Virus record (IMG/VR): IMGVR_UViG_3300045988_131014
Span: 1-64,000 of that record
DNA: 64,000 nucleotides
Reading direction: 5' to 3' (one strand)
Origin: a virus
The notes beneath the pieces are model-generated. The model made no database searches, had not been told where the DNA came from, and was given only the letters and a program-made list of their open reading frames with translations. This document shows, piece after piece, positions 16,108 to 63,006 of this stretch. A program made the translations under genes and the position numbers. The first letter of the stretch is position 1. Every line of letters begins with the position of its first letter.

Positions 16108-16335
16108 ATGGGAAGAATGGTAAAAATCGCAGTAACAAATGAGATAGGTGACTCAAATCAATTATATAAAATTGGTACAAAATGGTTTAAGAACAAAGAA
16201 CATTATATCAATACACTAAAATCGTCCGACCTATCATATCAGACCGTATTAGACTTATTGGAGTCAGATAAAAATTGTTTATTTTCTGATAATGTTAAAA
16301 CAAAGATAATTAAATTATTAGAAAATGAATTATAA
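16108..16335 (+). CDS. hypothetical protein
   Basis: 75-aa ORF with SD AAGGAGGAAAAT upstream. Confidence 0.65.
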   Translation: MGRMVKIAVTNEIGDSNQLYKIGTKWFKNKEHYINTLKSSDLSYQTVLDLLESDKNCLFSDNVKTKIIKLLENEL

Positions 16336-16431
16336 AACAGAGAATATACATATGTAACCATTAACGCAGCACTCAAAGGAGCTGATGCAAAATGAACAAA
16401 TTATTTTTAAACAGAAAAGGAGAACTAATTA

Positions 16432-16593
16432 ATGAACAGAACAGTAACAATTACATCAAAGAACCATAAATACCAGAATACATACGGAGGAAATATTTGT
16501 GCTTCAGATTTTTGTACTGACTATGAAGGATCTCGAAATATTGCAGATAAGATTTTCGCAGATTGGGTTTTCGATCGCTCATGTGAAAAGTAA
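16432..16593 (+). CDS. hypothetical small protein
   Basis: 53-aa ORF with SD AAAGGAGAAC upstream. Confidence 0.5.
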   Translation: MNRTVTITSKNHKYQNTYGGNICASDFCTDYEGSRNIADKIFADWVFDRSCEK

Positions 16594-16636
16594 ATGAATA
16601 ACAGTATTAGAAGTTATAGAGAAAGGAAAATGAACA

Positions 16637-16939
16637 ATGGCAGATAAAAATATGACAGTTTCAATTGAAGAACAGGAAGTTTGTATCAATATGATGCGTG
16701 ATGAGAAATTTGCAACAATTTATGCTTCAGATTCTACATATATTACTAAATTGGATAGATTGTGTAAGGAAAGCCCTGATATGTACTCTCTCATTCAAGA
16801 TACTGGTAGAGGCAAGAAATATTTATTAAAGGATAAAACATTAATCAGTTTTAGAGCGAAGAAACGTGAACTTACAGATGAACAGAAGAAACAAGTTGCT
16901 GAACGTATGAGAAAATATCAAGCTAGTAAATCTAACTGA
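16637..16939 (+). CDS. hypothetical protein
   Basis: 100-aa ORF with SD GAAAGGAAAA upstream. Confidence 0.65.
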   Translation: MADKNMTVSIEEQEVCINMMRDEKFATIYASDSTYITKLDRLCKESPDMYSLIQDTGRGKKYLLKDKTLISFRAKKRELTDEQKKQVAERMRKYQASKSN

Positions 16940-17125
16940 GATGTCATTTCTAGCCAGAATTTCTAATGTACACCATTGTACAGAAAATTCTACGCCATTC
17001 GGTGAACAAATACCCATCTAAAAATTGTAACTTGAAAATTTAAACAACTGTATTAAAGGAGAATTAAATAACTATATGTGTAGTATGATATTCCTGAAAA
17101 TGCATATTCGGGACAGTATAATAAA

Positions 17126-17329
17126 ATGATCAAAATTGTAAACAATAATGATGTTACTGTTAATGTTAATATTTCTATTAAACAATACGATAAGGATGGA
17201 TTTTATATTAGACAAAACACAAATGATTATATAGTAAATAAAAATACTTATATTATTGCATTAATGGAATATAATAATGGACGTGTAATAGATTTTAATA
17301 ATCCAATACAATATGACGAACAGTTTTAA
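17126..17329 (+). CDS. hypothetical protein
   Basis: 67-aa ORF whose ATG overlaps the TGA of an SD-preceded 17-codon leader ORF (17076..17129), an ATGA coupling. Confidence 0.5.
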   Translation: MIKIVNNNDVTVNVNISIKQYDKDGFYIRQNTNDYIVNKNTYIIALMEYNNGRVIDFNNPIQYDEQF

Positions 17330-17335
17330 ATATCT

Positions 17336-17617
17336 TTGAGAAGTGTAAATAGAGCAGATTCTATTGATATAAAATATAATATTTCTGATCAGTATATTGA
17401 TAATGGTTGGATATATAGAGATATTGTTTTTACTTCACCTATTACTAAATCTGCAAAATATTCTGCGTTATGTTATAATAGTAGTGGAGAATTAACGAGA
17501 ATAGTTACTGGTTATGTATATGTCCCTGCTAATGAAAAAGTAAAAAAGAAAGATGGATATAATTTGAATTTTAAAGATAAATATGATATCCAAAAAATAA
17601 ATATATATTTCTATTGA
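17336..17617 (+). CDS. hypothetical protein (TTG start, same frame as 17126..17329)
   Basis: 93-aa ORF two codons after the in-frame TAA of the previous ORF; no SD. Confidence 0.45.
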   Translation: MRSVNRADSIDIKYNISDQYIDNGWIYRDIVFTSPITKSAKYSALCYNSSGELTRIVTGYVYVPANEKVKKKDGYNLNFKDKYDIQKINIYFY

Positions 17618-17634
17618 TCAAGTATTGGTTTATT

Positions 17635-17666
17635 GGACTATGGCTTTGGCTGTAGTCCTTTTTTAT
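17635..17666 (+). terminator. Rho-independent terminator
   Basis: GGACTA..TAGTCC stem followed by TTTTTTATT. Confidence 0.7.
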
Positions 17667-17727
17667 TGCTGTTTTATATATGGATATCTCTATTTAAAAG
17701 ATGATTTGTGCGAACAGTTTTAATATA

Positions 17728-17737: not shown

Positions 17738-17739
17738 AA

Positions 17740-18221: not shown

Positions 18222-18250
18222 TTGACTTTAGACAAGTAACATGATATACT
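18222..18250 (+). promoter_or_regulatory. sigma-A type promoter P1
   Basis: TTGACT - 17 nt - TATACT with a TGA extended -10. Confidence 0.75.
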
Positions 18251-18279
18251 TGTATTAAGTCAAGCGAATAAAATGATAC

Positions 18280-18308
18280 TTGACTTTAGACAAGTATCAT
18301 GATATACT
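18280..18308 (+). promoter_or_regulatory. sigma-A type promoter P2 (repeat of P1)
   Basis: Same roughly 58-nt unit repeated: TTGACT - 17 nt - TATACT. Confidence 0.75.
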
Positions 18309-18381
18309 TGTATTAAGTCAAGCGAATAATTAGGAAGTAACAAGACTTTAAACTTCTTTGCAAGCAATCCTAAAACAATAC

Positions 18382-18410
18382 TTGACTTTAGACAAGTAAC
18401 ATGATATACT
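18382..18410 (+). promoter_or_regulatory. sigma-A type promoter P3 (repeat of P1)
   Basis: Third copy of ATACTTGACTTTAGACAAGTAACATGATATACT. Confidence 0.75.
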
Positions 18411-21587: not shown

Positions 21588-21785
21588 ATGGCATATAGAA
21601 AGACAAAACAACTAAGAGAATTTGAACCGATTCTGTTACAGAATGGATACAGATTTACACGGTGCAAGGGAAGTCATTTCATTTATATGAATCGAACTTC
21701 TCATAAAATCATAGCAGTCAATAAAGACTTGAACAGAATGGTTCGTGAACGATTAATAAAAGAGAATAAGTTACAGGAGGTATAA
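21588..21785 (+). CDS. hicA: HicA-like mRNA interferase toxin
   Basis: LLQNGYRFTRCKGSHFIY..IAV..LNRMVRERLIKE resembles the HicA/YcfA core (G..R.KGSH). Confidence 0.55.
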   Translation: MAYRKTKQLREFEPILLQNGYRFTRCKGSHFIYMNRTSHKIIAVNKDLNRMVRERLIKENKLQEV

Positions 21786-26949: not shown

Positions 26950-27129
26950 GAAACAATTAGAGGGATCAATATTACAGAAACATACTCTGAATATGAAGAA
27001 AGTGATTACAAGAATAAAACAATTGTGATTAGAATGTCGGATCACGATTTTGGTGGAAACAGAGACTACTCATATAAAATACCTTGTATCAATATTGTTT
27101 TAGAGAATAAATAGATTGGAGTGATAAGA

Positions 27130-29709: not shown

Positions 29710-29739
29710 CTTTCCTTTGGTATAGAAATGGAGAATATT

Positions 29740-31186: not shown

Positions 31187-31453
31187 ATGAATATGGGAAA
31201 TCCAAAAAGAGCATCAAGATTTTTATGTCTTCACTGTATGAAAATTAATCAGTTAGGAAGTGGTATACAGAGAAATGGAAATCAGCGTAAGAAGAAACAT
31301 ATCAAAGACTTAACATGTTTTAATGAAGGCTGTGATGGAGAAATCACGAAAAACGTAGAAATTCGTTGGTGTGACGATTATCTGGAAATGTTGGATTATG
31401 CTCAACGAATTAGATCACGTTATTATACGGATAAAGTAGAGAATAATATGTAG
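31187..31453 (+). CDS. hypothetical zinc-ribbon protein
   Basis: CGAGGTG SD upstream; CLHC..CFNEGC. Confidence 0.6.
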   Translation: MNMGNPKRASRFLCLHCMKINQLGSGIQRNGNQRKKKHIKDLTCFNEGCDGEITKNVEIRWCDDYLEMLDYAQRIRSRYYTDKVENNM

Positions 31454-34042: not shown

Positions 34043-34071
34043 TTGACACAAACATATGTTTGGACTATGAT
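34043..34071 (+). promoter_or_regulatory. sigma-A type promoter with palindromic operator
   Basis: TTGACA - 17 nt - TATGAT; the spacer holds the perfect palindrome CAAACATATGTTTG. Confidence 0.7.
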
Positions 34072-34265
34072 TATTATTGTAAGAGAAATAATGGAAATAA
34101 AAACAGTCCGAATGACGTGGCTGCAACCACATATGTCATTCAGACTGTAACTCAACCAACCAAGATTAAGTCATTACATATTTTGGCATAATTTTCCAGT
34201 TATGTCAAGTTCAGTATGGCTAAAATCATAGCCTGTTTCCAATATTTTATCAAAATTTAATATTT

Positions 34266-35226: not shown

Positions 35227-35406
35227 ATGGTGATTTGTAAAAATTGTTACATTCCGATGATTGGAGTTATGTCGTTTTCAAAGGACAAGCATGAGAAATT
35301 CTGTCGCTGTCCTAAGTGTATGGCAGAAACAAGACATACAAAATTAGACGATTCTGGATTAAATTTTGGAGAATATTTACATAGAGAGATTAAGAAGGGG
35401 AACTAA
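35227..35406 (+). CDS. small zinc-ribbon protein
   Basis: AAGGAAGGA SD upstream; CKNC..CRCPKC. Confidence 0.55.
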   Translation: MVICKNCYIPMIGVMSFSKDKHEKFCRCPKCMAETRHTKLDDSGLNFGEYLHREIKKGN

Positions 35407-35413: not shown

Positions 35414-35974
35414 ATGGAAATTCAAGAAATGTTGGAGTGGTACTGTGATCATAACATGTACCATTTAAAGAAAATGTGCTATCCAATGTTAATAAAAATC
35501 GGTGGTATATCAAGCAAAGATTATGATGATTTCTATTCTATTGCATTAAGCGTTTTGGCAGATGTCGCTTTAAAATACGATGAAGATAATGATTGTGATT
35601 TTGATGGTTTTTTGGCGAGCTGTATTAATAGAAAATTTAAGACAGAAATCCGTGACCGTAATCGAAAAAAACAAATACCGGCAAAGAAGTTAGAGAGTAC
35701 AAGTAATCTTGTTACAGAAGATGGACTGGAACTTGGAGAAACCATTCCATCAAAGTTTGATACATATGAAGCTGCTTGTGAATATTTGTTTGAAGGTACT
35801 AAGATTCAAAGATATTTGGATAAGTTATCATATACGCAACGCAAAATCGTTTCGCTGTTATCTGATGGATATAAGGCAAAGGAAATCAGAGAATTATTAC
35901 ATATGGATAGCAAACAATATTCTAATAATCTTGCAGCTATTCAAGCATATGAAAATGTAAAAATTTTAATGTAA
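35414..35974 (+). CDS. sigma-70 family RNA polymerase sigma factor (compact, ECF/phage-like)
   Basis: Region-4-like HTH LSYTQRKIVSLLSDGYKAKEIRELLHMDSKQYSNNLAAI; region-2-like N-terminal half. Confidence 0.65.
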   Translation: MEIQEMLEWYCDHNMYHLKKMCYPMLIKIGGISSKDYDDFYSIALSVLADVALKYDEDNDCDFDGFLASCINRKFKTEIRDRNRKKQIPAKKLESTSNLVTEDGLELGETIPSKFDTYEAACEYLFEGTKIQRYLDKLSYTQRKIVSLLSDGYKAKEIRELLHMDSKQYSNNLAAIQAYENVKILM

Positions 35975-40530: not shown

Positions 40531-41496
40531 TTGACAGAGAATAATGAAAAAAATAATTCTCAAGGACTACGAGTATTAAGTTTATGTGGTGGAATCTCTT
40601 GTGGAAGAGTTGCATTAGATAAAGCCAATATTTCAGTCAGTGAGTATAACGCATTTGAAATTGAAGAGAATGCAATCAAAATCAGTAGATATAATTATCC
40701 TGATATCAAAAGATACGGTGACGTATTTTCTACCGACTTCAAGGGTTTTAATGGAGTCGATCTATTAATGGGTGGTTCACCTTGCCAGTTCTGGTCGAAA
40801 GCCAAGTGTAGTAAAACAGCAAAATTGAAGAGAGAAATTGATACAGAAGGCGAAGGTTGGAAACTGTTTCAGAAATTTGTGGAAGCAAAGAATAACACAA
40901 ATCCAAAATATTTCCTATATGAAAACAATTATGGAATGGCTGATGAGATTCAAGACGCTATTAGTGAGGAATTGGGTGTACAACCAATTATGATTGATAG
41001 TCAATTATTATCAGCTCAGAGAAGAAAACGTCTGTATTGGACGAACATACCAAATATCACGCTTCCTGATGATAAAGGATTATTAGTGAAAGATGTTATT
41101 TGTGATGATCCAGATTTAGTCAAATACTTTGATGACAGAATCAGGAACACAATGATTAAGTGTGAGAATTACATAAAATATGATCTTGGTGGCAAAGGTC
41201 ATTATTCGCAACAGGACAGGCTGTACTTTTTAGATAAGAAAGCTCCAACAGTACCACGTTGTAGAACAGAAACAAAATTCAATGTTTGGCTTGGTGGAGA
41301 AAAATATAAAAAGACATGTCCATTAGAGATTGAACGACTTCAGACACTTCCAGACAATTATACGGAGTTTGGAATGGATGAGAGTGGCAATGTAAAAGCA
41401 ATGCCTAAGACAAGAAGGTTTGAAGCAATTGGTAACGGATGGACTGTCGATGTTATAGCACATATTTTGAGTTTTATGAAGTGTAATGGAGAATAA
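40531..41496 (+). CDS. dcm: DNA (cytosine-5)-methyltransferase
   Basis: Motif I LSLCGGISCG, motif IV GGSPCQFWS, motif VI YENNYG, motif VIII QRRKRLYW, motif X GNGWTV. Only a TTG start, with no SD. Confidence 0.85.
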   Translation: MTENNEKNNSQGLRVLSLCGGISCGRVALDKANISVSEYNAFEIEENAIKISRYNYPDIKRYGDVFSTDFKGFNGVDLLMGGSPCQFWSKAKCSKTAKLKREIDTEGEGWKLFQKFVEAKNNTNPKYFLYENNYGMADEIQDAISEELGVQPIMIDSQLLSAQRRKRLYWTNIPNITLPDDKGLLVKDVICDDPDLVKYFDDRIRNTMIKCENYIKYDLGGKGHYSQQDRLYFLDKKAPTVPRCRTETKFNVWLGGEKYKKTCPLEIERLQTLPDNYTEFGMDESGNVKAMPKTRRFEAIGNGWTVDVIAHILSFMKCNGE

Positions 41497-41583
41497 CATA
41501 ATATGAAGTTCGCAGTAAAGCGGAATTTCTTCTGAGTTTTCAGAGAATAAATACATATAAAAATAAAGAAAAGAGGTAGCAAA

Positions 41584-42108: not shown

Positions 42109-42652
42109 GAATTATATCATTAATACTTTCAGACATTTTAAGAAAGTCTGTACTCATAAACGTTGGGTATTCTACTATTGCTGTAAAGTGGGAATTCCAT
42201 TTCAAGGGTTAGTACATGATTTATCTAAATTTTCTCCAACGGAATTTTGGGAGAGTGTTAAGTATTATCAAGGTACTTCAAGTCCAATAGATGCTTGCAA
42301 GAAAGAGAATGGTTGGTCAGTAGCTTGGATGCACCATAAAGGAAGAAACAAGCACCATTACGAATATTGGCAGGACAATTTTGATAATGGTGGAAATCCT
42401 ATTGAAATGCCAATGAAGTATAAAAAAGAAATGCTTTGTGATTATCTTGGAGCAGGTAGAGCATATCATGGTAAATCATTTAATTTTGAGAAGGAATTAA
42501 AATGGTGGGAATCTAAGAAAAGTAAACCAATTGCAATGCATCCAAATGACATGGCTTTTATTGATAAGTACATTAATCTGTTTTATGAGTACGAAAACAG
42601 AGAATATGATATTAGAACAATATTTAATCAAATCAAGAAAGAAGGAAAATAA
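42098..42652 (+). CDS. His/Trp-rich protein of unknown function inside the NAD operon (DUF5662-like by recollection)
   Basis: GGAG 7 nt upstream. LVHDLSKFSP..WMHHKGRNKHHYEYWQD. Overlaps pncA and abuts pncB. Confidence 0.6.
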   Translation: MKCKNYIINTFRHFKKVCTHKRWVFYYCCKVGIPFQGLVHDLSKFSPTEFWESVKYYQGTSSPIDACKKENGWSVAWMHHKGRNKHHYEYWQDNFDNGGNPIEMPMKYKKEMLCDYLGAGRAYHGKSFNFEKELKWWESKKSKPIAMHPNDMAFIDKYINLFYEYENREYDIRTIFNQIKKEGK

Positions 42653-44481: not shown

Positions 44482-44497
44482 GAAGGAGAATATATAA

Positions 44498-45262: not shown

Positions 45263-45269
45263 ATGAGAT

Positions 45270-45322
45270 ACTATATATAGTGTTTGTGGAAGATATAGGC
45301 ACTATATATAGTAATATTTTTA
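45270..45322 (+). terminator. terminator closing the NAD operon
   Basis: Two copies of the self-complementary ACTATATATAGT form a 12-bp stem, followed by AATATTTTT. Confidence 0.6.
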
Positions 45323-45568: not shown

Positions 45569-45849
45569 CAGAAAGTGAAGCTATCGAAGAACTAAAATAT
45601 GATTGTAATGAACTTGGTAAAGCAATCCCATGTGATACTTCATGGGGATGTTCTTTTGAAAATGCTTATGGAATGGCAATACAGGCACTTGAAAAGCAGA
45701 CACCAAAGAAAGTAAAAAATAGCGGAGAGAGAATTCCGTTTGAATGGTATTGTCCTACTTGCGGAGAAATATTGTGTGATGATGGCTACAAAGATATCGA
45801 CATTAAATATTGTGATCAATGCGGTCAGGCATTAGATTGGGAAAATTAA
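45565..45849 (+). CDS. hypothetical zinc-ribbon protein
   Basis: 4-nt overlap with the previous gene; CPTCGE..CDQCGQ. Confidence 0.6.
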   Translation: MTESEAIEELKYDCNELGKAIPCDTSWGCSFENAYGMAIQALEKQTPKKVKNSGERIPFEWYCPTCGEILCDDGYKDIDIKYCDQCGQALDWEN

Positions 45850-45918
45850 GAGAATAAGAATAATGAAAGGAGACGAGGTTCGTGTACACAAGAAGGAATT
45901 CCTTACTCCAAGTAATTT

Positions 45919-46653
45919 ATGAAATATATGGGTTCAAAATCTCGTATAGTTGATAATATTTTACCGATTATTCAAGAAAGATTGCGAGATTATAATATCA
46001 AAACATACATAGAGCCATTTTGCGGTGGTTGTAATGTAATCGACAAAGTTCAGTGTGACACAAAAATCGCTTCTGACAATCATAAATATCTTATTGAAAT
46101 GTTCAAGAATCTAAATCAGATTCAAAATCTCCCAGAATTTATTACAAAAGAACACTATTCAGATGTAAGAGAGTGCTTTAACAAAAGATTGTCTACATAT
46201 CCTGATTGGTATATTGGAGCAGTTGGTTTTCTCTCAAGTTATAACGGCAGATTCTTTGATGGCGGTTACTCAGGTATCGTACATACAAAAGCTGGAACTG
46301 AAAGAAATTATTATGACGAAGCTAAGAGAAATTTGTTAGAACAAATTCCAAGGTTAGAAGATATTCAATTCCAATGTGGAGATTATGAAGAGTTATATTC
46401 TGATAAAGTTGACTGCTTATTTTATTGCGATATTCCATATAAGGGTACGAAACAATATGGATCAAGTAAGAACTTTGATTATGACAGATTTTGGAATTGG
46501 GCTGAGAAGATGAGTGAGAGGAATATTGTCTTAGTCAGTGAGCATGAAGCTCCTTCAGAATGGGAATGTATTTGGCAACAGGAAGTCAAAAGAACGATTG
46601 ACAATACAAAGCGAGTTAAAGCAGTAGAAAAGTTATTTGAAATAAGAGAATAA
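45919..46653 (+). CDS. dam: DNA N6-adenine methyltransferase (Dam / D12 class)
   Basis: MKYMGSKSRIV, motif I YIEPFCGGCNV, motif IV YCDIPYKGT. Confidence 0.85.
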   Translation: MKYMGSKSRIVDNILPIIQERLRDYNIKTYIEPFCGGCNVIDKVQCDTKIASDNHKYLIEMFKNLNQIQNLPEFITKEHYSDVRECFNKRLSTYPDWYIGAVGFLSSYNGRFFDGGYSGIVHTKAGTERNYYDEAKRNLLEQIPRLEDIQFQCGDYEELYSDKVDCLFYCDIPYKGTKQYGSSKNFDYDRFWNWAEKMSERNIVLVSEHEAPSEWECIWQQEVKRTIDNTKRVKAVEKLFEIRE

Positions 46654-47471: not shown

Positions 47472-47753
47472 ATGAATAAGAGACAGAAAAAGAAATTTAT
47501 TAAGAATAATATGACAAAGCTAAGGAAGATACATCCAAATGAAGGTGATATTGTAGTTCTTCAATGGAATCCAGATAGTGAATATATAAATTTTGACACC
47601 ATTGTTGAGTTCTATAAAGCTTGGGAGAATGCAGGAATTTTTGATAAATGCGGAGCTGCTATTGTTCCGTGCGACTTTAAGATTTTCAACAAGGAAGAAG
47701 CTCAGATATATATTGATAAGTTACAGAGCATTGTAGATCAGATGGGAGAATAA
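47472..47753 (+). CDS. hypothetical protein
   Basis: 93-aa ORF preceded by the AAGAGAATAA motif. Confidence 0.6.
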   Translation: MNKRQKKKFIKNNMTKLRKIHPNEGDIVVLQWNPDSEYINFDTIVEFYKAWENAGIFDKCGAAIVPCDFKIFNKEEAQIYIDKLQSIVDQMGE

Positions 47754-48138: not shown

Positions 48139-48244
48139 AGAAGCATTTCCTGTTGATTTTATCTAAGAGCGTTTCTGCTCACAATTTCCAAAATAAAAGA
48201 GAGAATAATTAAGCGACAATAAAAGTTTGAAGGAGATATGTTTT

Positions 48245-51216: not shown

Positions 51217-51393
51217 ATGTGTAATCGTTGTGATTATGACTCACCTGATAATCGAATATATGTAGATCCATTGACGAATGAATATTATTTGGATATAGAA
51301 ACATCAGAATGGGATGAATATGACGATGGATTTGTTCATCAGGAAGAGTATATTGCATATTGTCCTTGGTGTGGAAGAAAGTTAGGAGAATAA
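51217..51393 (+). CDS. small zinc-ribbon protein
   Basis: CNRC..CPWCG. Confidence 0.55.
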   Translation: MCNRCDYDSPDNRIYVDPLTNEYYLDIETSEWDEYDDGFVHQEEYIAYCPWCGRKLGE

Positions 51394-53577: not shown

Positions 53578-54054
53578 GTGTTAGTACCTGCAATTTTATA
53601 TAAAGAACAGATTAAAAAAGAATTTCAGAAATATTACTATACAACAGATATGATGTACGAGACTGGTTGCATGTGCAATTGGAGTCCTGAAATTGCAGAA
53701 TGTCCAAATGAGAGTCAATTCCAATATGCAATAGTTGATAAGAACGAAAAAGTCATTGGCTACTTAGGATATTCAGTAGATTGGTATGCGTCTAAAGCGT
53801 ATAACTTTGGATTATTTTCATTTGACAGAGGGAATATCTTGGTTGGTAAGAATGTATTCGATAAATTAGAAGAATTGATTAAAACATTACATAGAGTTGA
53901 ATGGAGAGCTGTTGGTGGCAATCCTGCTTGTAGAGGATATGATAGCTTTATCGAGAGACATAATGGAACGAAACATGTTCTAAAAGATTCGATTAAAGAT
54001 AAGAATGGTAAATATCACGATGATATTATTTATGAGATTGTGAGTGGAGAATAA
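53578..54054 (+). CDS. possible GNAT-family acetyltransferase (GTG start)
   Basis: LHRVEWRAVGGNPACRGYDSFIERHNG..GKYHDDIIYEI resembles the GNAT C-terminal half. Confidence 0.4.
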   Translation: MLVPAILYKEQIKKEFQKYYYTTDMMYETGCMCNWSPEIAECPNESQFQYAIVDKNEKVIGYLGYSVDWYASKAYNFGLFSFDRGNILVGKNVFDKLEELIKTLHRVEWRAVGGNPACRGYDSFIERHNGTKHVLKDSIKDKNGKYHDDIIYEIVSGE

Positions 54055-55099: not shown

Positions 55100-56284
55100 A
55101 TGGCATTTGCAACTACCATTTATGTTGTTATTTATCCAAAATTTTTCAATGAAAGATTGGATTGTACCAAATTGAAATCCTATGACAATATATCAGATGT
55201 AGATTTAGCAAGTTGGCAAGATTTAATCAAATTACAGAAAGAACATCTAACGCAGCTTGAAGCTGATTCATTAGAACTAATCAAAGAAAAGACAGAGAAA
55301 TTTAATACATATACTTCGATAATTCCTGTCTCTATGGGTAAGGATTCAATGCTTACCTGTCATCTAGTCAGAAAATTATATCCAGAAACAAAAGCAATAT
55401 TCAATAATACATCACTTGATTGTGTTGACACATATAGAATGATTAAGACTTTCCCTAATTGTGAGATTATGAATCCTGAGAAGGGATTTTACCAATATAT
55501 TAAAGAACAAAATATTATATTTAATAGAATTTCTCGTGGTTGTTGTAGAATCTTCAAAGTAGGTGAAATGGTTAGGCGTTTAGACCATAACAAACCATAT
55601 TTAATGTGGATGGGTATGCGAAACGAAGAATCTAATACTAGAAGCGGATATCAGGATGAATGGGTAAACGAAGCTGAATGGGGAAATACATGTTGGCAGG
55701 GAATACTACCAATAAGAAAATGGGACGAAATAGATGTCTGGTTATATACAATATGGAAAAATATTGAAATAAATTCAAAGTATAAAAAGGGATATTCAAG
55801 GGTTGGCTGTGCCGTATCGTGCCCTTACTACACCAAATCAACGTGGATTCTTGATAAATATTGGTATCCAACAATGAGAAATCGTTGGGAGAATATTTTA
55901 AAAGAAGACTTTATAGGCAATTCAAAATGGTTAGTTATGAATTGCACAGTAGATGAATATATCAATCAAGCTTGGAATGGTGGCGTGTTTAGAGATGAAC
56001 CAACAAAAGAGGTTATTAAAGAATATGCTAAGTATAGCAATTTAGATGAGAAAGTTGCTGCACAGTATTTTAACAAATATTGTGACAATGGATGCAAGTC
56101 TCAATCTGGTAAGTTGAAGCGAATTAAGGCGAAGGATGTTATTGGTATGAACTTAAAATATCATGGAAGGAATATCAATAAGTTTTATTGTAAAAAGTGT
56201 CTCATGAAAATGTATAACATGGATGAAGAAAAATGGAACAAACAAGTAGAAAGATTTAAACAATCAGGATGTGATTTGTTTTAA
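55100..56284 (+). CDS. PAPS reductase / PP-loop ATP pyrophosphatase family protein with C-terminal Cys cluster
   Basis: PP-loop variant IIPVSMGKDSMLTCHLV; later CAVSCPYY and CKKC; no SD at the annotated start. Confidence 0.6.
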   Translation: MAFATTIYVVIYPKFFNERLDCTKLKSYDNISDVDLASWQDLIKLQKEHLTQLEADSLELIKEKTEKFNTYTSIIPVSMGKDSMLTCHLVRKLYPETKAIFNNTSLDCVDTYRMIKTFPNCEIMNPEKGFYQYIKEQNIIFNRISRGCCRIFKVGEMVRRLDHNKPYLMWMGMRNEESNTRSGYQDEWVNEAEWGNTCWQGILPIRKWDEIDVWLYTIWKNIEINSKYKKGYSRVGCAVSCPYYTKSTWILDKYWYPTMRNRWENILKEDFIGNSKWLVMNCTVDEYINQAWNGGVFRDEPTKEVIKEYAKYSNLDEKVAAQYFNKYCDNGCKSQSGKLKRIKAKDVIGMNLKYHGRNINKFYCKKCLMKMYNMDEEKWNKQVERFKQSGCDLF

Positions 56285-56405
56285 AACAGAGAATAATATG
56301 ATGTAACAATTAATCATATCTAAGCCATTCGGCTATGGGAATCCCAATAAATAAGAGAATATTACAGTGTAACCAATAAAAATATTACATATAAAGGATA
56401 TTGAA

Positions 56406-58011: not shown

Positions 58012-58200
58012 ATGCCTTTTACAGTAGATTTTAGTTCAATAAGAACAGTTAGAGTTCACAAAGAACAATTTGACGCAATAGACAATAAAGCAAATGTCGT
58101 AATGATTACTTGCATTGAGGACGGAAGAGTTATTCCATTCAATAGAGCTGATAGCGAAAAAGATAAAATTGATAGATTGAACAGGAATAGTGGAGAATAA
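58012..58200 (+). CDS. hypothetical protein
   Basis: TTGGAGG upstream. Confidence 0.6.
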   Translation: MPFTVDFSSIRTVRVHKEQFDAIDNKANVVMITCIEDGRVIPFNRADSEKDKIDRLNRNSGE

Positions 58201-58939: not shown

Positions 58940-59234
58940 TTATTTCGGTAAAAATATTCAGTTTGTATGTAGATGCTGCAACTGTGTATATGAAGTTGAA
59001 TCAAAGGATGATTGGAATGTTCAGATGATATTTCCTAACTATTATAGTTTTAAATATAAAGTTCCTGAATATGGAGTAACTTGTCCTAATTGTGGTCATG
59101 AAGAATATCTTGGTTGCGATCAAGATGACTTGATAGGAACTGAATCTGAAAACCTACACTGTCCTTGGATTCCATTATTAAAGAAGAGAGCAGATTGGAA
59201 TGAACGATATAGGGTTGAGCCAATAAGAGAATAA
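58920..59234 (+). CDS. hypothetical zinc-ribbon protein
   Basis: CRCCNC..CPNCGH. Confidence 0.55.
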   Translation: MKIVAGNYFGKNIQFVCRCCNCVYEVESKDDWNVQMIFPNYYSFKYKVPEYGVTCPNCGHEEYLGCDQDDLIGTESENLHCPWIPLLKKRADWNERYRVEPIRE

Positions 59235-59253
59235 GTATTTGTGAGGTGAGTAG

Positions 59254-59514: not shown

Positions 59515-59790
59515 ATGAATGAAGAATTTTTATTAATCGTAGAAAGCTTAGAAAAATATAAGGATCTATTAGAAAGCAAAAATGATGAAATTTGTGATGG
59601 AATGACTGAAGGCGAAAAAAGAGCATATCAGTTAGGAATTACAAATATGTATGAAATGTTGAAACAAATTATTGAACATGATCACAGCGAAGGTAATTAT
59701 AACGTATTTGTTCCTGAGATTAAGGAAGAAGAATCTGGTGAATATGATTTAGAAGATTTTATTGAGTGGGATTTTAAAAATAGAGAATAA
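59515..59790 (+). CDS. hypothetical acidic protein
   Basis: AAAGGAG 9 nt upstream. Confidence 0.6.
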   Translation: MNEEFLLIVESLEKYKDLLESKNDEICDGMTEGEKRAYQLGITNMYEMLKQIIEHDHSEGNYNVFVPEIKEEESGEYDLEDFIEWDFKNRE

Positions 59791-59828: not shown

Positions 59829-60410
59829 TTGGAGAAAGAAATAGTATACATTGCAGATTTAGACCAAGATGTTGATGATGTTGTTGCAGCACATTATCTT
59901 CATAACGAAGGTGTATTGAAATGTGTTGTATGTGATCCATATCCAATGACAGAAGATGGGTTGAAAAGAAAAGACATTCTTGAAAGTTTGGGCGTTCAAG
60001 TATTAAAGAAAATGCCACCAGTTGCAAAATATGTATTTGTTGGTGGTGCATTAACGCTTGTTGCCGATTATATCAAAATGCATCACATTGACTGGTTAGT
60101 AATGAATGGTGGTTTTGTTGGTACAAACATCGCTTCGTTTGAACTGGATAAATTTAAAGGAAAAGAAACAGTAAGAACATTAGTAACAGATAACAAGAAA
60201 AGCTTTAGAGTTGGTGAAGATGTTGCATTTACGTTATTCAATAAAGTGACAAATCATCACGATCACTACATAGGAAATATTATAGAAATGACAGACACTT
60301 CTATTAAAATTTCTAATATTGAAATTGATAGATGTCATGAAGATGGCGAAATGATTATTGACTTAGAAAATATTGAATCCAATAGCTGTAATTATGTGTA
60401 TTATGATTAA
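59829..60410 (+). CDS. short protein with nucleoside-hydrolase-like N-terminal Asp cluster (TTG start)
   Basis: IADLDQDVDDVVAAHYL resembles the IU-nucleoside hydrolase DxDxxxDD signature, but the protein is only 193 aa; GGAGGTG upstream. Confidence 0.4.
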   Translation: MEKEIVYIADLDQDVDDVVAAHYLHNEGVLKCVVCDPYPMTEDGLKRKDILESLGVQVLKKMPPVAKYVFVGGALTLVADYIKMHHIDWLVMNGGFVGTNIASFELDKFKGKETVRTLVTDNKKSFRVGEDVAFTLFNKVTNHHDHYIGNIIEMTDTSIKISNIEIDRCHEDGEMIIDLENIESNSCNYVYYD

Positions 60411-60442
60411 AACAGAGAATATATAGTTAGAGAGGTGAGAAT

Positions 60443-60727
60443 GTGATTCAAGTAATTGAGACAAATTTAAGCATTGACAAAGATGACACCATAAGAGATC
60501 ATCAGTCACGAATTGTTGAAGTTGAAGATTGGGATACATATTGCAAAGCATTTGAAAAATATAATGGCGAAGCCGTTTATTTCAAGTCAAAGACTATGCG
60601 TGGTTACAGTATCTTATCGAATTGCACAATGACAGATTTGATATATGATGACATTCATTTATCTTGTATGGTCTTACACCGATCAGGTTTTATTACTAAG
60701 AAACTTGCATATAGAATTGTTCTATAA
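60443..60727 (+). CDS. hypothetical protein (GTG start)
   Basis: GAGAGGTGAG upstream. Confidence 0.55.
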   Translation: MIQVIETNLSIDKDDTIRDHQSRIVEVEDWDTYCKAFEKYNGEAVYFKSKTMRGYSILSNCTMTDLIYDDIHLSCMVLHRSGFITKKLAYRIVL

Positions 60728-60796
60728 TCTATGACTCATTCGAGTCACAATTTCCAATAAAAAGAAAATCGAATAGAGAATAAGTAAGAGGTGGAT

Positions 60797-61129
60797 ATGG
60801 ATAATCAAACATATAACGCTTGCCGTTGTTTTATTAGTAATATTGATTCAATAAGCAGTAATGCAAAAATTGTTATTGATAACATTAAATCTTATAACAA
60901 TGATACTGATTCATCAGCAAAATTATTTATTCATTCAAAACACTCCAATACGGAAAACATACTAACAGAAGATGAGGTAAATCTGGTAATTTCAATGCTA
61001 TTGAAAAAATATAAGAAAAGTATTGAGCAATATCAAAAGGAATTGAATGAATGTATTAATGAAGAAGTTTTGAAAATAACGGAGACATTAAAAGAGTTGG
61101 ATAATAAGAGTAAAACAGAGAATAAGTAA
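60797..61129 (+). CDS. hypothetical protein
   Basis: AAGAGGTGG upstream. Confidence 0.6.
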   Translation: MDNQTYNACRCFISNIDSISSNAKIVIDNIKSYNNDTDSSAKLFIHSKHSNTENILTEDEVNLVISMLLKKYKKSIEQYQKELNECINEEVLKITETLKELDNKSKTENK

Positions 61130-61144
61130 GTGAAAGGAAAACAT

Positions 61145-61300
61145 ATGAGTAAGAAAATTATTGTAAAGATTACAAGATTATTATGCAAGCTAACACATAA
61201 TGAATTTCTCATTATATTAGATGGAATCAGCTCTTGGTCTGTATCTAAGAATACACATATAAGAGATGTGGTTTATTATCATAGAAAATTATTATCATAG
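61145..61300 (+). CDS. hypothetical small protein
   Basis: GAAAGGAAAA upstream; 51 aa. Confidence 0.45.
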   Translation: MSKKIIVKITRLLCKLTHNEFLIILDGISSWSVSKNTHIRDVVYYHRKLLS

Positions 61301-61356
61301 AAAAACAGAAAGTTGATTGTAAATCACTGTTTCATTCGGATTTTGAGGAGGTGAAC

Positions 61357-61590
61357 ATGTTAGTAGTTTTAATGAGTATTCATATAATTGGAGCAATTAT
61401 TACTATTATTATTCATTGTAGAGACGGAACAATGGAACATGCTTCAAAATATGGAGATGGATTTAGATTTGCAAAACCGTCAGATATTATATTTCAAGAT
61501 TGCTTACTATGGGAAATTCAATTAGTAATTCATACGATAGTCTTTGTAGAAGATTACATAAACAGTAAATTCAATAAGCATTTTCATTGA
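61357..61590 (+). CDS. small membrane protein
   Basis: GAGGAGGTG upstream; LVVLMSIHIIGAIITIIIH TM. Confidence 0.6.
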   Translation: MLVVLMSIHIIGAIITIIIHCRDGTMEHASKYGDGFRFAKPSDIIFQDCLLWEIQLVIHTIVFVEDYINSKFNKHFH

Positions 61591-61844
61591 ACAAATCAGT
61601 TCAAAATTTTCAAAAACAAAATGTCACGAATAATATATAAAATCCGTGACAAACAAGAGAATAAATAAATGCGGAAAGCATTTGTACAGGTGGAAGAACA
61701 GCATACCCTTGGGCTTTTGCGCTCAAAAATCACTGTTGAAGATAGATTTTTACATAAATTTATTTTCTGTGTTCCAGTCGCAAGACTGTTCAAATATAGT
61801 TATCAAAAAATTTTATTTCATATTATAAGGAGGACATTTTTTAA

Positions 61845-62921
61845 ATGGCAGAGACAAAGAAAAAAGGAAGATTATTTGATTTACCTGAGACAAAGGGTGC
61901 ATTCCAGTTAAAGGGAGTTGTATCTGGTATGGAGAAGGATACGGCATTTAAGGAAATTAAGACCAAAAGTGGGAAACCTATGAGAATGCTTAATTTTGGT
62001 ACAAGTTATCTTGGCGGTGAGACATTATATGTCAATCTTCAGGGAATGGAACAGGAATATGTTTATTTCTATAAGAGGGCTGAAAAGAAGGGTGAAAAGG
62101 CTGATATTGTAAAAGTACCTTGGGCTGATAGATTTTCTTATAACCGTGAAGGATATCGCATGATTGGTAAGAATATCGGTGTAAAGAAGAAGGTTGATTC
62201 TGAGGGTAAGACAGTTAATGACAAGAAGGTTCTTACAGATTTTGATGCTTGTAAGGAAGTTAAAGAGAATCTGAAGGATGGTGCAAGCGTATTTATTCGT
62301 GGAAATCTTGATTATAGCAGTTTTACAGATGATAAGGGTAATAAGAGAACATCTACAAAGCTTGTTCCAAATCAAATTTCACTTTGCTCAGAGGTAAACT
62401 TTGATGATGAGAAGTTTGAGAAGCAGAATGATTTCAACCAGGTAATTATTTTCATGGAAATCGAGCAGGAAAAGGATGATAACGATAAGCCAACAGGCAG
62501 ATTTATTGTCCTTGCAAAGATTGTTACATACAGCAATATTGAGGATGTTCAGTTTATCATCGAGGATAAGGCTCTCGCTAATAAGTTTAAGAAGTCACTT
62601 AATCCTTACAATGCAATTAAGGTAAGTGGACATATGGTTTCTTCTACTCAGACAGAGACAGTTGCAACAGATGATGATGACAATTGGGGTGAAGAGGACA
62701 GCATGGAGAAAGTATCTGCACCTACAAAGAGAGAGTTTATTATCACAGGAGCAAAGGGTTCTTCAATTGATAAGGAACTTTATACAGAGGAGAATGTAAC
62801 AGAGGCTATTGCAAAGATTAAGAATGCAAATAAGGCAGAGGAGAGTTTTGGTTCTGATTCTAATGACGATTGGGGAGATGGAACAGATCTTGATGATGGA
62901 GACGATGAAGCGTGGGATTAA
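61845..62921 (+). CDS. putative single-stranded DNA-binding protein with acidic C-terminal tail
   Basis: 358 aa with AAGGAGG upstream; C-terminus DDWGDGTDLDDGDDEAWD is typical of SSB protein-interaction tails; the fold is not verifiable by eye. Confidence 0.4.
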   Translation: MAETKKKGRLFDLPETKGAFQLKGVVSGMEKDTAFKEIKTKSGKPMRMLNFGTSYLGGETLYVNLQGMEQEYVYFYKRAEKKGEKADIVKVPWADRFSYNREGYRMIGKNIGVKKKVDSEGKTVNDKKVLTDFDACKEVKENLKDGASVFIRGNLDYSSFTDDKGNKRTSTKLVPNQISLCSEVNFDDEKFEKQNDFNQVIIFMEIEQEKDDNDKPTGRFIVLAKIVTYSNIEDVQFIIEDKALANKFKKSLNPYNAIKVSGHMVSSTQTETVATDDDDNWGEEDSMEKVSAPTKREFIITGAKGSSIDKELYTEENVTEAIAKIKNANKAEESFGSDSNDDWGDGTDLDDGDDEAWD

Positions 62922-63006
62922 TTCTCACAACAGAGAATAACTAAGTGGAACGTCAGAAATGGCGTTCCAATAAATCAATATTATAGAATTACGGAGGAAT
63001 TATTTA

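What the first reader, a model, noticed from the sequence alone, without database searches (positions are those of the whole stretch)
16333..62942. Highly over-represented junction motif (A)AACAGAGAATAA
**Forward-strand copies.**
- Copies of AGAGAATA(A/T) with an ACAG or AAG prefix sit at or just after stop codons, 10-120 nt upstream of the next start. Positions are 16337, 27101, 40534, 41541, 45848, 46644, 47458, 48198, 56285, 59781, 60412, 60772, 61113, 61655 and 62931.
- Stop-overlapping GGAGAATAA copies occur at 41488, 47743, 51383, 54043 and 58190.

**Reverse-strand copies.** These lie in the reverse-strand block, at 2735, 2891, 6026 and 10441.

By my rough composition estimate, a 9-mer like this should occur only once or twice per strand in 64 kb. 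Several proteins end in ..GE or ..RE simply because the motif overlaps their stop codon.

The motif is rare in the early block (18.9-31 kb) and dense from 40 kb onward. It precedes the NAD operon, dam, the HNH gene, lemA and the replication genes. It therefore looks like a stage-specific promoter or processing signal, perhaps for the phage sigma factor (35414) or for the YonO-like polymerase.
Basis: seen in the sequence. Interest (0 to 1): 0.75.

Follow-up and report, generated by a model that had tools for sequence, protein, structure and literature searches.

The report
Phage-specific promoter-like junction motif
A short DNA word (RGAGAATAW) repeated in front of dozens of genes and RNA genes of a gut Lachnospiraceae phage is most likely that phage's own promoter signal for its non-structural genes, mixed with some ordinary ribosome-binding sites that look alike.

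Summary
AGAGAATAW occurs 38 times against 4.35 expected. GGAGAATAA occurs 9 times against 1.06. 70 of the 72 GAGAATA cores lie on the coding strand.

The set is mixed:
- About a quarter of junction copies are plain ribosome-binding sites (AAAGGAGAATAW-N4-ATG).
- Some copies are in-frame codons (GEY, EN).
- The rest share a longer consensus, AAAnRGAGAATAW-wwaAn-T-R, with no -35 box and no general hairpin.

The copies in that last group:
- follow intrinsic terminators in many unrelated contexts;
- precede tRNA and GOLLD RNA genes;
- sit 20-24 or 30-60 nt before start codons;
- recur in 459 distinct contexts in related gut phages.

Density is 14-18 per 10 kb, one strand only, in the replication and nucleotide-metabolism module. 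It is about 1 per 10 kb, with no strand bias, in the late structural module of the same lineage.

The best reading is a phage-specific, single-element promoter for middle genes, starting transcription about 6 nt after the 9-mer. The core fits the sigma-H-type -10 consensus RRMGAAW, and the phage encodes a small sigma factor. An RNA-level signal is not excluded.

The parts
10439..10453 (-). Exact 15-mer TAAAACAGAGAATAT. It heads a non-coding stretch that runs into tRNA-Asn, GOLLD RNA and tRNA-Pro.
   Evidence: The motif is kept in about 45 relatives while the sequence just downstream falls into at least 6 unrelated variants.
16333..16347 (+). Exact 15-mer directly after the stop of ORF 16108-16335. 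It is followed by ATGTAA at +12 from the core.
   Evidence: Homology breakpoints lie at 16333 and 16340.
56282..56296 (+). Exact 15-mer after the stop of the PAPS-reductase-like gene. It is followed by ATGTAA.
56354..56362 (+). Second copy (AAGAGAATAT) in the same junction, 44 nt before the start at 56406. It is followed by GTGTAA.
60408..60422 (+). Exact 15-mer. The Shine-Dalgarno GAGGTG begins about 6 nt after the 9-mer, and the start codon is 21 nt after the core.
61111..61125 (+). Exact 15-mer. The start codon is 20 nt after the core.
2736..2744 (-). AGAGAATAA ahead of about 90 nt of non-coding sequence that ends at a terminator-like hairpin (2664-2641).
2892..2900 (-). CAGAGAATAA ahead of non-coding, structured sequence.
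6027..6035 (-). AACAGAGAATAA about 150 nt downstream of terminator 6218-6191. It is followed by a strong hairpin leader.
2172..2180 (-). TGGAGAATAT about 120 nt upstream of tRNA-Met, with no ORF in between. The same family sits about 580 nt ahead of the late operon in relative L269.
14039..14047 (-). TGGAGAATAT 41 nt upstream of the YonO-like polymerase gene.
   Evidence: The family is seen in more than 40 relatives.
15127..15135 (+). TGGAGAATAT 23 nt before the first plus-strand gene (15158), in the divergent control region.
21761..21769 (+). AGAGAATAA inside the last codons of ORF 21588-21785, 21 nt before the next start.
27102..27110 (+). AGAGAATAA 20 nt before the start at 27130.
31438..31446 (+). 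AGAGAATAA 24 nt before the start at 31470.
40536..40544 (+). ACAGAGAATAA in the 40.3-40.7 kb gap.
41488..41496 (+). TGGAGAATAA. Its TAA is the stop of ORF 40768-41496. The next start is 88 nt away, so this copy is not a ribosome-binding site.
41542..41550 (+). CAGAGAATAA 34 nt before the start at 41584.
42599..42607 (+). AACAGAGAATAT 47 nt before the nicotinamide phosphoribosyltransferase-like gene (42654), inside the upstream ORF.
45849..45857 (+). AGAGAATAA directly after the stop at 45849.
46645..46653 (+). AGAGAATAA. Its TAA is the stop of ORF 45919-46653. The Shine-Dalgarno GGGAGGTG begins at +14 from the core, and the start codon is 20 nt after the core.
48200..48208 (+). GAGAGAATAA 37 nt before the start at 48245.
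54046..54054 (+). TGGAGAATAA. Its TAA is the stop of ORF 53578-54054. A separate Shine-Dalgarno GGAGGTG follows, and the start codon is 22 nt after the core.
59226..59234 (+). AGAGAATAA, stop-overlapping. It is followed by TTGTGA and then GAGGTG. The start codon is 20 nt after the core.
59782..59790 (+). AGAGAATAA, stop-overlapping. The start codon is 39 nt after the core.
60775..60783 (+). AGAGAATAA 14 nt before the start at 60797.
61656..61664 (+). AAGAGAATAA with ATG at +12 from the core (ORF 61669-61911).
62932..62940 (+). AACAGAGAATAA 11 nt after the stop at 62921. It is followed by a GGAACG..CGTTCC hairpin.
47745..47753 (+). GGAGAATAA used as a Shine-Dalgarno site plus spacer, with ATG 9 nt after GGAG. 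Its TAA is also the upstream stop codon. This is an ordinary coupled ribosome-binding site.
51385..51393 (+). The same ribosome-binding-site class (AGGAGAATAA-N4-ATG).
58192..58200 (+). The same ribosome-binding-site class.
44485..44493 (+). The same ribosome-binding-site class (AAGGAGAATAT-N4-ATG). Others of this class are at 29730, 52282, 54515 and 59503.
35414..35974 (+). Small sigma-70-family protein (186 aa, regions 2 and 4). It is a candidate reader of the motif.
   Evidence: Pfam Sigma70_r2, E 0.008. PHROG 351, E 1e-8. NCBIfam sigma70-ECF 2e-8, PRK08295, SigI and spore_sigH, all below their cut-offs. Alignment A1.
34044..34072 (+). Canonical sigma-A-type promoter TTGACA-17-TATGAT. It lies ahead of tRNA-Gln, tRNA-Met, two ORFs and the sigma gene.
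   Evidence: Read directly from the sequence.
11440..13998 (-). YonO-like single-chain RNA polymerase (852 aa). It is the rival candidate reader.
   Evidence: tblastn gives 49% identity to Enterocloster phages, 35% to Clostridium phage c-st and 25% to SPbeta YonO, E 2e-16.
10680..11456 (-). 258-aa ORF overlapping the polymerase gene's 3' end by 17 nt. The same arrangement is found in PMBT24, and the ORF co-occurs with the polymerase in 90 loci. It is a possible polymerase partner.
18222..18410 (+). Three tandem sigma-A-type promoters (TTGACT-17-TATACT, each with an upstream TG) heading the 18.8-31 kb block.

Best explanation
Outside the plain ribosome-binding-site copies, RGAGAATAW is the core of a phage-specific, single-element promoter. 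It drives the non-structural ('middle') genes, tRNAs and non-coding RNAs of this SPbeta-like Lachnospiraceae phage.

**Proposed mechanism**
- The element is AAAn-RGAGAATAW. It is followed by an A/T-rich, G-poor 5-nt spacer and then T(-1)R(+1).
- Transcription therefore starts about 6 nt after the 9-mer, often exactly at the first base of the next gene's Shine-Dalgarno sequence.
- The most likely reader is host core RNA polymerase carrying the phage sigma factor (35414-35974). That sigma gene is itself expressed from a canonical sigma-A promoter.
- The cascade would be: host sigma-A (early), then phage sigma acting on the motif (middle, including the YonO-like polymerase gene), then the YonO-like polymerase acting on the late structural operon.

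**Shown and inferred**
- Shown: enrichment, strand bias, consensus, positions, module specificity, and recurrence in relatives.
- Inferred: that the motif is a promoter, where transcription starts, and which factor reads it.
For: 1. **Enrichment and strand coherence**.
2. **Recurrence.** There are 459 distinct sequence contexts in the window plus relatives, and 355 of them are near gene boundaries.
3. **Shared consensus.** The A-prefixed and the non-Shine-Dalgarno G-prefixed classes share the same downstream signature: W7, A10, A11, T13 (66%), R14 (90%), and G depleted at positions 8-13. This matches the 'element, 6 nt, Y-1/R+1' geometry of the mapped AR9 promoters AAATATATATTAT-6N-G(+1) and AACA-6N-T-A/G(+1) (PMC5312081). 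From my own knowledge, it also matches bacterial -10 elements.
4. **Terminator contexts.** A terminator scan found 46 junction contexts. They fall into about a dozen apparently unrelated terminator families, with a strong intrinsic terminator followed 8-54 nt later by the motif. Where a gene start is called, it lies a few tens of nt further on.
5. **Non-coding targets.** Copies head stretches leading to tRNA-Asn, GOLLD RNA and tRNA-Pro, and to tRNA-Met. This rules out a purely translational role.
6. **Spacing to start codons.** Peaks lie at 20-24 nt and at 30-60 nt. In the 20-24 nt group the Shine-Dalgarno sequence begins at position 13-15.
7. **Module specificity.** Density is 14-18 per 10 kb, all on one strand, in relatives of the 45-64 kb module. 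In the late structural module of the same lineage it is about 1 per 10 kb on either strand, at similar base composition.
8. **Canonical promoters.** Sigma-A-like promoters and terminators are at chance level in 44-64 kb. They exist elsewhere, at 18222-18410 and at 34044.
9. **Fit to sigma-H.** [AG]GAGAAT fits the sigma-H -10 consensus (A/G)(A/G)(A/C)GAA(A/T). GGAGAAT is a documented Listeria sigma-H -10 box (PMC4754846).
10. **The phage sigma.** Its best family matches are ECF, PRK08295, SigI and SigH-type. It lies downstream of a sigma-A promoter.
11. **Polymerase gene.** The YonO-like polymerase gene has a motif copy 41 nt upstream. In SPbeta, YonO transcribes only the late operon (PMC5467207).
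Against: - There is no transcript mapping, so promoter function and the start site are inferences.
- No -35 element was found, although the sigma has a region 4.
- Position -7 would be A in 62% of copies.
- The consensus extends into the presumed transcribed region (T-R-t-a-a, with 27 NTG-TAA start-stop cases). This is more typical of promoters for phage-encoded polymerases.
- The motif copy upstream of the sigma gene is not conserved in close relatives.
- Sigma homologues were detected in only 44 loci, and their contigs overlap little with other motif-rich contigs. That search is pattern-limited.
- GGAGAATAW makes up 31% of GGAG-N9-start ribosome-binding sites and is far rarer at other spacings. 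The same word is therefore also tied to translation starts, in a way the promoter model explains only awkwardly.
- Phylogenetic footprinting was uninformative because of mosaicism.
Confidence: 0.42

Rival explanations
1. The element is the same and is a promoter, but it is read by the phage's YonO-like single-chain RNA polymerase, perhaps together with the 258-aa protein whose gene overlaps the polymerase gene. This would work like T7-type promoters scattered through the middle region. It would be the first promoter consensus for the YonO family.
For: - The consensus is long (about 20-24 nt), lacks a -35 box, and shows conservation at and after the presumed start.
- Copies sit downstream of the polymerase / 258-aa / HU-like genes at the head of non-coding RNA stretches (10446, 6034). 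A copy also lies about 580 nt ahead of the late operon in L269. In SPbeta the YonO start site lies upstream of an unannotated non-coding RNA and yonK.
- The polymerase is present in every relative fetched through it, and those with 87% identity or more carry the motif.
- The 258-aa ORF is coupled to the polymerase gene in this phage, in PMBT24 and in 90 loci.
Against: - In SPbeta, YonO transcribes one late operon from one start site. Here the motif is at background level inside the late structural module and dense in the non-structural one.
- The SPbeta P_YonO amplicon shows no similar word.
- A motif copy precedes the polymerase gene itself.
- The core matches a sigma-type -10 consensus.
Confidence: 0.27
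2. The motif acts in RNA. It is a recognition site for a phage or host endoribonuclease or an RNA-binding regulator, in the manner of T4 RegB cutting GGAG in early-gene ribosome-binding sites or RegA binding them. It would process or silence middle-gene messages and release tRNA and non-coding RNA precursors.
For: - The motif is strictly on the sense strand.
- It occurs both inside ribosome-binding sites at one exact spacing (31% of GGAG-N9 sites) and just upstream of Shine-Dalgarno sequences.
- It is dense in non-structural modules and absent from the late module. From my own knowledge, RegB targets in T4 are distributed in a similar way.
- It lies upstream of tRNAs.
Against: - A bipartite consensus with a fixed spacer and a Y-R step is typical of start-site geometry, not of a contiguous RNA site.
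- Many copies lie directly after strong terminators, where little read-through RNA would exist.
- There is no common secondary structure: mean z is -0.45 downstream and -0.48 upstream.
- I identified no nuclease candidate.
Confidence: 0.13
3. There is no single function. The excess is a sum of ribosome-binding sites (GGAG plus an A/T-rich spacer), TAA stop codons, favoured codons (GGA GAA TAT, GAG AAT AAx) and purine-rich coding-strand composition.
For: - 51 of 126 G-prefixed junction contexts are at Shine-Dalgarno spacing.
- Several in-gene hits read as GEY or EN.
- Eight copies supply the stop codon.
Against: - The late structural module of the same lineage has similar GC and purine content but only 1-4 cores per 10 kb, with no strand bias.
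- A-prefixed copies are almost never at Shine-Dalgarno spacing (3 of 162).
- Flanking positions are conserved outside any codon or Shine-Dalgarno logic.
- Some copies lie in gene-free stretches.
Confidence: 0.07
4. The word is mainly a recombination or module-boundary sequence, by analogy with the promoter-stem-loop cassettes said to shuffle genes in T4-type phages (recalled from memory, not checked in the literature). Its spread would reflect cassette exchange rather than expression.
For: - At 10446(-) the left flank and the motif are shared by about 45 relatives, while at least 6 unrelated sequences follow immediately.
- Well-supported homology breakpoints lie at 6041, 10432, 10460 and 16333.
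Against: - Only 10 of 175 breakpoint clusters lie within 15 nt of a core, against 5.5 expected.
- Recombination at short repeats is a plausible by-product of repeated promoters.
- This idea does not explain the strand bias, the spacing to start codons or the T-R signature.
Confidence: 0.04

Closest known systems
Sigma-H / ComX-type promoters of Firmicutes. The -10 consensus is (A/G)(A/G)(A/C)GAA(A/T), with examples such as GGCGAAT and GGAGAAT. The streptococcal com-box TACGAATA is cited from memory.
   Same: - [AG]GAGAAT fits the published -10 consensus position for position.
- The phage sigma's weak family matches include PRK08295, SigH and SigI models.
- The com-box is likewise a single -10-type element.
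   Different: - No AGGA-type -35 box 11-12 nt upstream was found.
- The motif extends to ATAW and to an A-rich stretch upstream.
- The sigma scores below every curated cut-off, so it is not a SigH orthologue.
- Nothing was tested experimentally.
Single-element promoters read through phage-encoded sigma factors: T4 late promoters (TATAAATA, gp55) and the middle/late promoters of phiEco32 gp36. Both are cited from my own knowledge. The gp36 literature was located but its consensus was not read.
   Same: - An 8-9 nt element at about -10 with no -35 box.
- Placed in front of many genes, often inside or right after the previous gene.
- Specific to one temporal class.
   Different: - The sequence, host phylum and sigma lineage all differ.
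Promoters of phage-encoded multisubunit-type polymerases: AR9 early AAATATATATTAT-6N-G(+1), AR9 late AACA-6N-T-A/G(+1), and phiKZ TATG.
   Same: - The geometry is the same: conserved element, about 6 nt, then T followed by a purine start.
- The context is A/T-rich.
- The A-class copies even begin with AACA.
   Different: - The AACA-to-TR distance is 13 nt here and 6 nt in AR9.
- The polymerase here is a single-chain YonO type, not a split beta/beta' enzyme.
- No start sites have been mapped.
Shine-Dalgarno ribosome-binding sites.
   Same: About 50 distinct junctions in relatives, and about 8 in the window, use AAAGGAGAATAW with the start codon 9 nt after GGAG.
   Different: - The A-prefixed class (AGAGA) pairs poorly with the anti-Shine-Dalgarno sequence and is almost never at that spacing.
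- It usually has its own strong Shine-Dalgarno sequence downstream.

Membership tests
Bacterial sigma-dependent promoter (-10-type element) | A conserved hexamer-like element about 6-7 nt upstream of a purine start that is preceded by a pyrimidine. | tested here: met
   After GAATAW at positions 2-7 come T13 (66%, or Y 80%) and R14 (90%). This holds in 221 A-class and 75 non-Shine-Dalgarno G-class contexts. The start site itself is inferred, not mapped.
Bacterial sigma-dependent promoter (-10-type element) | A -35 element at a fixed distance. | tested here: not met
   No conserved position or enriched k-mer was found between -45 and -9. Some sigma classes do without a -35 element.
Bacterial sigma-dependent promoter (-10-type element) | Primary (5'-triphosphate) transcripts start at the site, and initiation depends on the sigma factor. 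| not testable with these tools
   This needs dRNA-seq or in vitro transcription.
Sigma-H-type promoter | A -10 box matching RRMGAAW. | tested here: met
   AGAGAAT and GGAGAAT both fit. GGAGAAT is listed as a Listeria sigma-H -10 box.
Sigma-H-type promoter | A -35 box RMAGGRWWW 11-12 nt upstream. | tested here: not met
   AGGA shows no positional peak upstream of the motif.
Shine-Dalgarno site | Complementary to the 16S rRNA 3' end and 5-10 nt upstream of a start codon of a real ORF. | tested here: inconclusive
   The test is met by the AAAGGAGAATAW-N4-ATG subclass. It is not met by the A-prefixed class, where 3 of 162 copies are at that spacing, nor by 75 G-prefixed contexts.
Promoter of a phage-encoded (YonO-type) RNA polymerase | Resembles the known promoter of the family. 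| not testable with these tools
   The YonO promoter sequence is unknown (PMC5467207). The SPbeta start-site amplicon has no similar word.
Promoter of a phage-encoded (YonO-type) RNA polymerase | Located in front of the genes that the polymerase transcribes, which in SPbeta is the late structural operon. | tested here: inconclusive
   The motif is at background level inside the late module. One copy lies about 580 nt ahead of that module in L269. The motif is dense in non-structural modules.
Intrinsic terminator | A G+C-rich hairpin followed by a run of T. | tested here: not met
   The motif has no hairpin of its own and there is no general structure signal. Terminators lie upstream of it, not at it.
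Mobile regulatory cassette (promoter plus stem-loop, T4-type phages) | Promoter-like repeats that flank variable gene cassettes and coincide with mosaic breakpoints. | tested here: inconclusive
   There are clear cases at 10446(-), 16340 and 6034. Overall, 10 of 175 breakpoint clusters lie near a core against 5.5 expected. No associated stem-loop was found.

The most novel reading that the evidence does not exclude
RGAGAATAW, with its A-rich upstream stretch and T-R-taa start region, is the promoter recognised by the YonO-type single-chain, two-barrel RNA polymerase, possibly through the co-translated 258-aa partner. This would give the first promoter consensus for that polymerase family. It would also show that in clostridial SPbeta-like phages the enzyme transcribes middle genes, tRNAs and a GOLLD RNA, and not only a single late operon.
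Probability: 0.27. Interest if true: 0.75.

Novelty: new member of a known kind. Interest (0 to 1): 0.5.

Why it matters
If the motif is a promoter, it supplies a ready-made transcription map for a large, common but uncultured group of human-gut phages. These are 70-215 kb contigs with prophages in Eubacterium segne and Roseburia.
- It points to a three-step cascade: host sigma-A, then a phage factor, then the YonO-like polymerase.
- It gives about 30 testable promoter fragments, which could settle what the phage sigma and the YonO-type polymerase each recognise. The YonO promoter has been unknown since 2017.
- It marks the transcription unit of a phage-borne GOLLD RNA.
- It flags short promoter repeats as likely crossover points in the mosaic evolution of these phages.

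Tried and rejected
1. **Near-identical published phage.** None was found in the phage collection.
2. **Scan of viral contigs with the exact 15-mer.** Almost all hits were single chance matches, so this was uninformative.
3. **Motif plus hairpin as a unit.** The idea came from GNRA-loop hairpins after the motif in some variants at 10446. I rejected it as a general feature. The downstream folding z-score (-0.45) equals the upstream one (-0.48), and stems start anywhere from +7 to +25.
4. **Obligatory link to stop codons.** Rejected, because the upstream stop has no fixed position.
5. **A -35 box or AGGA box.** None was found.
6. **Phylogenetic footprinting of orthologous junctions.** Too few alignments span the motif because of mosaicism, so nothing could be concluded.
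7. **A substitute motif in relatives of the 45-64 kb module that lack the word** (L231, L252, L251, L256, L264). The enriched k-mers inspected in two of them (L231, L264) are coding. No clear replacement motif stands out in the k-mer lists of the others.
8. **Variant motifs GAAGAATAT and GAAGAATT in distant polymerase relatives.** These turned out to be coding EEY and EEL.
9. **Similarity to the SPbeta YonO start-site region.** None was found.
10. **Co-occurrence of sigma or polymerase with the motif across contigs.** The contig lists overlap too little, and the pattern-based searches are allele-specific.
11. **Autoregulatory motif upstream of the sigma gene.** It is not conserved in close relatives, so the copy at 35369 is probably incidental coding sequence.
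12. **Literature search for the word.** Nothing relevant was found.

Full report
**1.

AGAGAATAW occurs 38 times against 4.35 +/- 2.0 in dinucleotide-preserving shuffles. GGAGAATAA occurs 9 times against 1.06. AGAGAATA is the commonest 8-mer on the coding strand.

Of 72 GAGAATA cores, 70 point the same way as the genes: minus strand below about 14.6 kb and plus strand above. About 15 further exact copies were missed. A longer exact 15-mer, TAAAACAGAGAATAW, occurs five times.

With my crude gene calls, the core is 3.7 times denser in intergenic or stop-overlapping positions than inside genes (p = 1e-7).

**2. What the window is**

The 852-aa ORF is a YonO homologue. It is 49% identical to Enterocloster phages, 35% to Clostridium phage c-st and 25% to SPbeta YonO. 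Relatives are abundant in human-gut viral contigs of 70-215 kb. They also occur as prophages in Eubacterium segne, Roseburia and other Lachnospiraceae.

ORF 35414-35974 is a small sigma-70-family protein with regions 2 and 4. Genes use strong canonical Shine-Dalgarno sequences.

Canonical sigma-A promoters exist. There are three in tandem at 18222-18410. A TTGACA-17-TATGAT promoter at 34044 lies ahead of two tRNAs and the sigma gene.

**3. The copies are not all one thing**

I pooled the window with about 110 related loci and removed near-duplicates. This gave 459 distinct contexts of [AG]GAGAATA[AT].

- *G-prefixed copies at Shine-Dalgarno spacing.* They show a sharp peak with the start codon 5 nt after the core, which is 9 nt after GGAG, and have AAA in front. 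These are ribosome-binding sites. The word is unusually tied to that one spacing. AATAA or AATAT makes up 31% of spacers in GGAG-N9-start sites and about 3-10% at other spacings.
- *A-prefixed copies.* They are almost never at that spacing (3 of 162). They peak at 20-24 nt and at 30-60 nt before the next start, with a separate strong Shine-Dalgarno sequence in between.
- *Another 75 G-prefixed contexts.* These are mostly T or C followed by GGAGAATAW, and they behave like the A class.
- *In-gene hits.* Some read as GGA GAA TAT or GAG AAT AAx.

The upstream stop codon has no fixed position relative to the motif. The '..RE*' and '..GE*' protein endings are therefore a by-product of a word that ends in TAA.

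**4. The consensus**

The A class and the non-Shine-Dalgarno G class share the same flanks:
- A-rich at -5 to -3;
- W at +7;
- A at +10 and +11;
- G depleted from +8 to +13;
- T at +13 (66%);
- purine at +14 (90%).

A weaker t-a-a follows. In 27 of the 56 A-class contexts with NTG at +12 to +14, the next codon is TAA, giving a one-codon start-stop ORF.

There is no -35-like element. There is also no general hairpin: downstream and upstream folding z-scores are equal.

'Conserved element, about 6 nt, pyrimidine, then purine' is the geometry of mapped promoters. Examples are the AR9 early and late promoters, where the final purine is the start site (PMC5312081). From my own knowledge, bacterial -10 elements have the same geometry.

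**5. Context points to transcription**

- *Terminators.* A terminator scan found 46 junction contexts. They fall into about a dozen apparently unrelated terminator families, with a strong intrinsic terminator followed 8-54 nt later by the motif. Where a gene start is called, it lies a few tens of nt further on.
- *Non-coding targets.* In the window, copies head gene-free stretches. The 10446(-) copy leads into tRNA-Asn, a GOLLD RNA (Rfam RF02032, 100 bits, E 7e-26, below the gathering score of 150) and tRNA-Pro. The 2179(-) copy lies 120 nt before tRNA-Met. The 2743(-) copy is followed about 90 nt later by a terminator-like hairpin.
- *Short leaders.* In the 20-24 nt group the Shine-Dalgarno sequence begins at +13 to +15. 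The predicted transcript would start right at the ribosome-binding site.
- *Canonical signals.* In 44-64 kb, sigma-A-type promoters (106 against 106 expected) and terminators (5 against 5.1) are at chance level, while the motif sits at most junctions.

**6. Module specificity gives an internal control**

Relatives of the 45-64 kb module carry 14-18 copies per 10 kb, all on the gene strand. The late structural module of the same lineage runs from the terminase gene onward. It includes some of the same contigs and has similar GC and purine content. It has 1-4 cores per 10 kb on either strand.

Codon usage and base composition therefore cannot explain the excess. The motif belongs to the non-structural genes. 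A few relatives of the module lack the word altogether. Where I inspected their enriched k-mers they were coding, and I found no clear substitute motif.

**7. Who reads it**

*For the phage sigma:*
- [AG]GAGAAT fits the published sigma-H -10 consensus RRMGAAW, and GGAGAAT is a documented Listeria sigma-H box (PMC4754846).
- The sigma's weak family matches are ECF, PRK08295, SigI and SigH-type.
- The sigma gene lies behind a sigma-A promoter.
- The polymerase gene has a motif copy 41 nt upstream.
- In SPbeta, YonO transcribes only the late operon from one start site (PMC5467207).
- Sigma homologues down to 47% identity keep the KRKFKTEIRDRNR stretch, and their loci keep the motif. Loci with 30% homologues have almost none.

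*For the YonO-like polymerase:*
- The consensus is long, lacks a -35 element and seems to extend past the start.
- Copies occupy positions analogous to SPbeta's P_YonO: after the polymerase and HU-like genes, ahead of non-coding RNA, and about 580 nt ahead of the late operon in L269.
- A 258-aa ORF is coupled to the polymerase gene and could be a specificity factor.

*Tests that failed to separate them:*
- The SPbeta start-site region has no similar word.
- The contig lists overlap too little for a co-occurrence test.
- The motif copy upstream of the sigma gene is not conserved.

I favour the sigma (0.42) over the polymerase (0.27). Together these give about 0.7 for 'promoter'.

**8. Rivals that are not promoters**

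An RNA-level site, such as a RegB- or RegA-like target, would explain two things. One is the sense-strand restriction. The other is the exact-spacing link to ribosome-binding sites. It fits poorly with the bipartite consensus and with the post-terminator positions (0.13).

A purely compositional explanation is contradicted by the late-module control and by the conserved flanks (0.07).

The motif coincides with some striking mosaic breakpoints. That is best seen as a consequence of repeated promoters rather than their purpose (0.04).

**9. Verdict**

This is a real, strong and lineage-wide signal. It is most likely a new promoter consensus of a familiar kind: a single-element, phage-specific middle-class promoter.

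The open question of which enzyme reads it is what makes it worth an experiment. A cultured lysogen, Eubacterium segne BX4, is available for 5'-end mapping.

Noticed in passing
window 9281-9709 (-), flanked by tRNA-Asn 10069-10142 (-) and tRNA-Pro 9161-9236 (-): There is a full-length match to the GOLLD RNA model (RF02032): 100 bits, E 7e-26, below the gathering score of 150. It lies between two phage tRNA genes and downstream of the 10446(-) motif copy. This looks like a phage-borne GOLLD RNA in a Lachnospiraceae phage.
   Followed up: partly
window 10680-11456 (-): A 258-aa ORF of unknown function overlaps the 3' end of the YonO-like polymerase gene by 17 nt. The same arrangement is found in Enterocloster phage PMBT24, and the ORF co-occurs with the polymerase in 90 fetched loci. 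It could be a polymerase partner or specificity factor.
   Followed up: partly
window 18222-18410 (+): Three tandem copies of a sigma-A-type promoter (TTGACT-17-TATACT, each with an upstream TG), spaced about 60-100 nt apart. They head the 18.8-31 kb block of small genes.
   Followed up: no
window 2916-2944 (+): A perfect consensus promoter, TTGACA-17-TATAAT with TG (12 of 12 matches). It points away from the motif copy at 2899(-) and runs antisense to the minus-strand block. No obvious plus-strand ORF lies downstream.
   Followed up: no
window about 14985-15065 (+): Two direct copies of AATTTGTACATTTTTG(A)GCAC about 57 nt apart, in the divergent region between the minus and plus gene blocks. 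They look like operators for a repressor.
   Followed up: no
window 16352-16357, 56301-56306, 56367-56372 and 59239-59244 (+); 27 contexts in relatives: One-codon start-stop ORFs (ATGTAA, GTGTAA, TTGTGA) sit exactly 12 nt after the G of the core. Among the 56 A-class contexts with NTG at that position, 27 are followed by TAA.
   Followed up: partly
window 10439-10453 (-), 16333-16347 (+) and 6027-6041 (-), compared with loci L119-L198: Homology between relatives breaks exactly at the motif. At least 6 unrelated sequences follow the conserved ATAAAACAGAGAATAW at the 10446 junction. This suggests crossover within the short repeat.
   Followed up: partly
loci L231, L232, L251, L252, L256 and L264: These relatives carry the same PAPS-reductase-like module, with up to 86% protein identity, but have virtually no copies of the word. 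No clear replacement motif stands out in simple k-mer counts.
   Followed up: partly
window 45269-45313 (+): A 45-nt near-perfect palindrome, TACTATATATAGTG...CACTATATATAGTA (20 pairs), just after the gene ending at 45262.
   Followed up: no
window 3391-4437 (-) and 31745-32725 (+): There are two tyrosine-integrase-like genes in one window. A Ku-like gene lies at 197-865 (+). The window also encodes RNA ligase (49010-50329), a CCA-adding enzyme (38074-39426) and a metallophosphoesterase (7402-8397). Together these look like a tRNA or RNA repair set.
   Followed up: no
SPbeta record NC_001884, 59153-60833 (locus L225 1154-2834, minus strand): The 1.7-kb gene-free stretch between yonN and yonK holds the YonO start site. 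It contains long hairpins, for example GGATAATAGTCATTTAT...ATAAATGGCTATTATC. This fits the unannotated non-coding RNA mentioned in the YonO paper.
   Followed up: no
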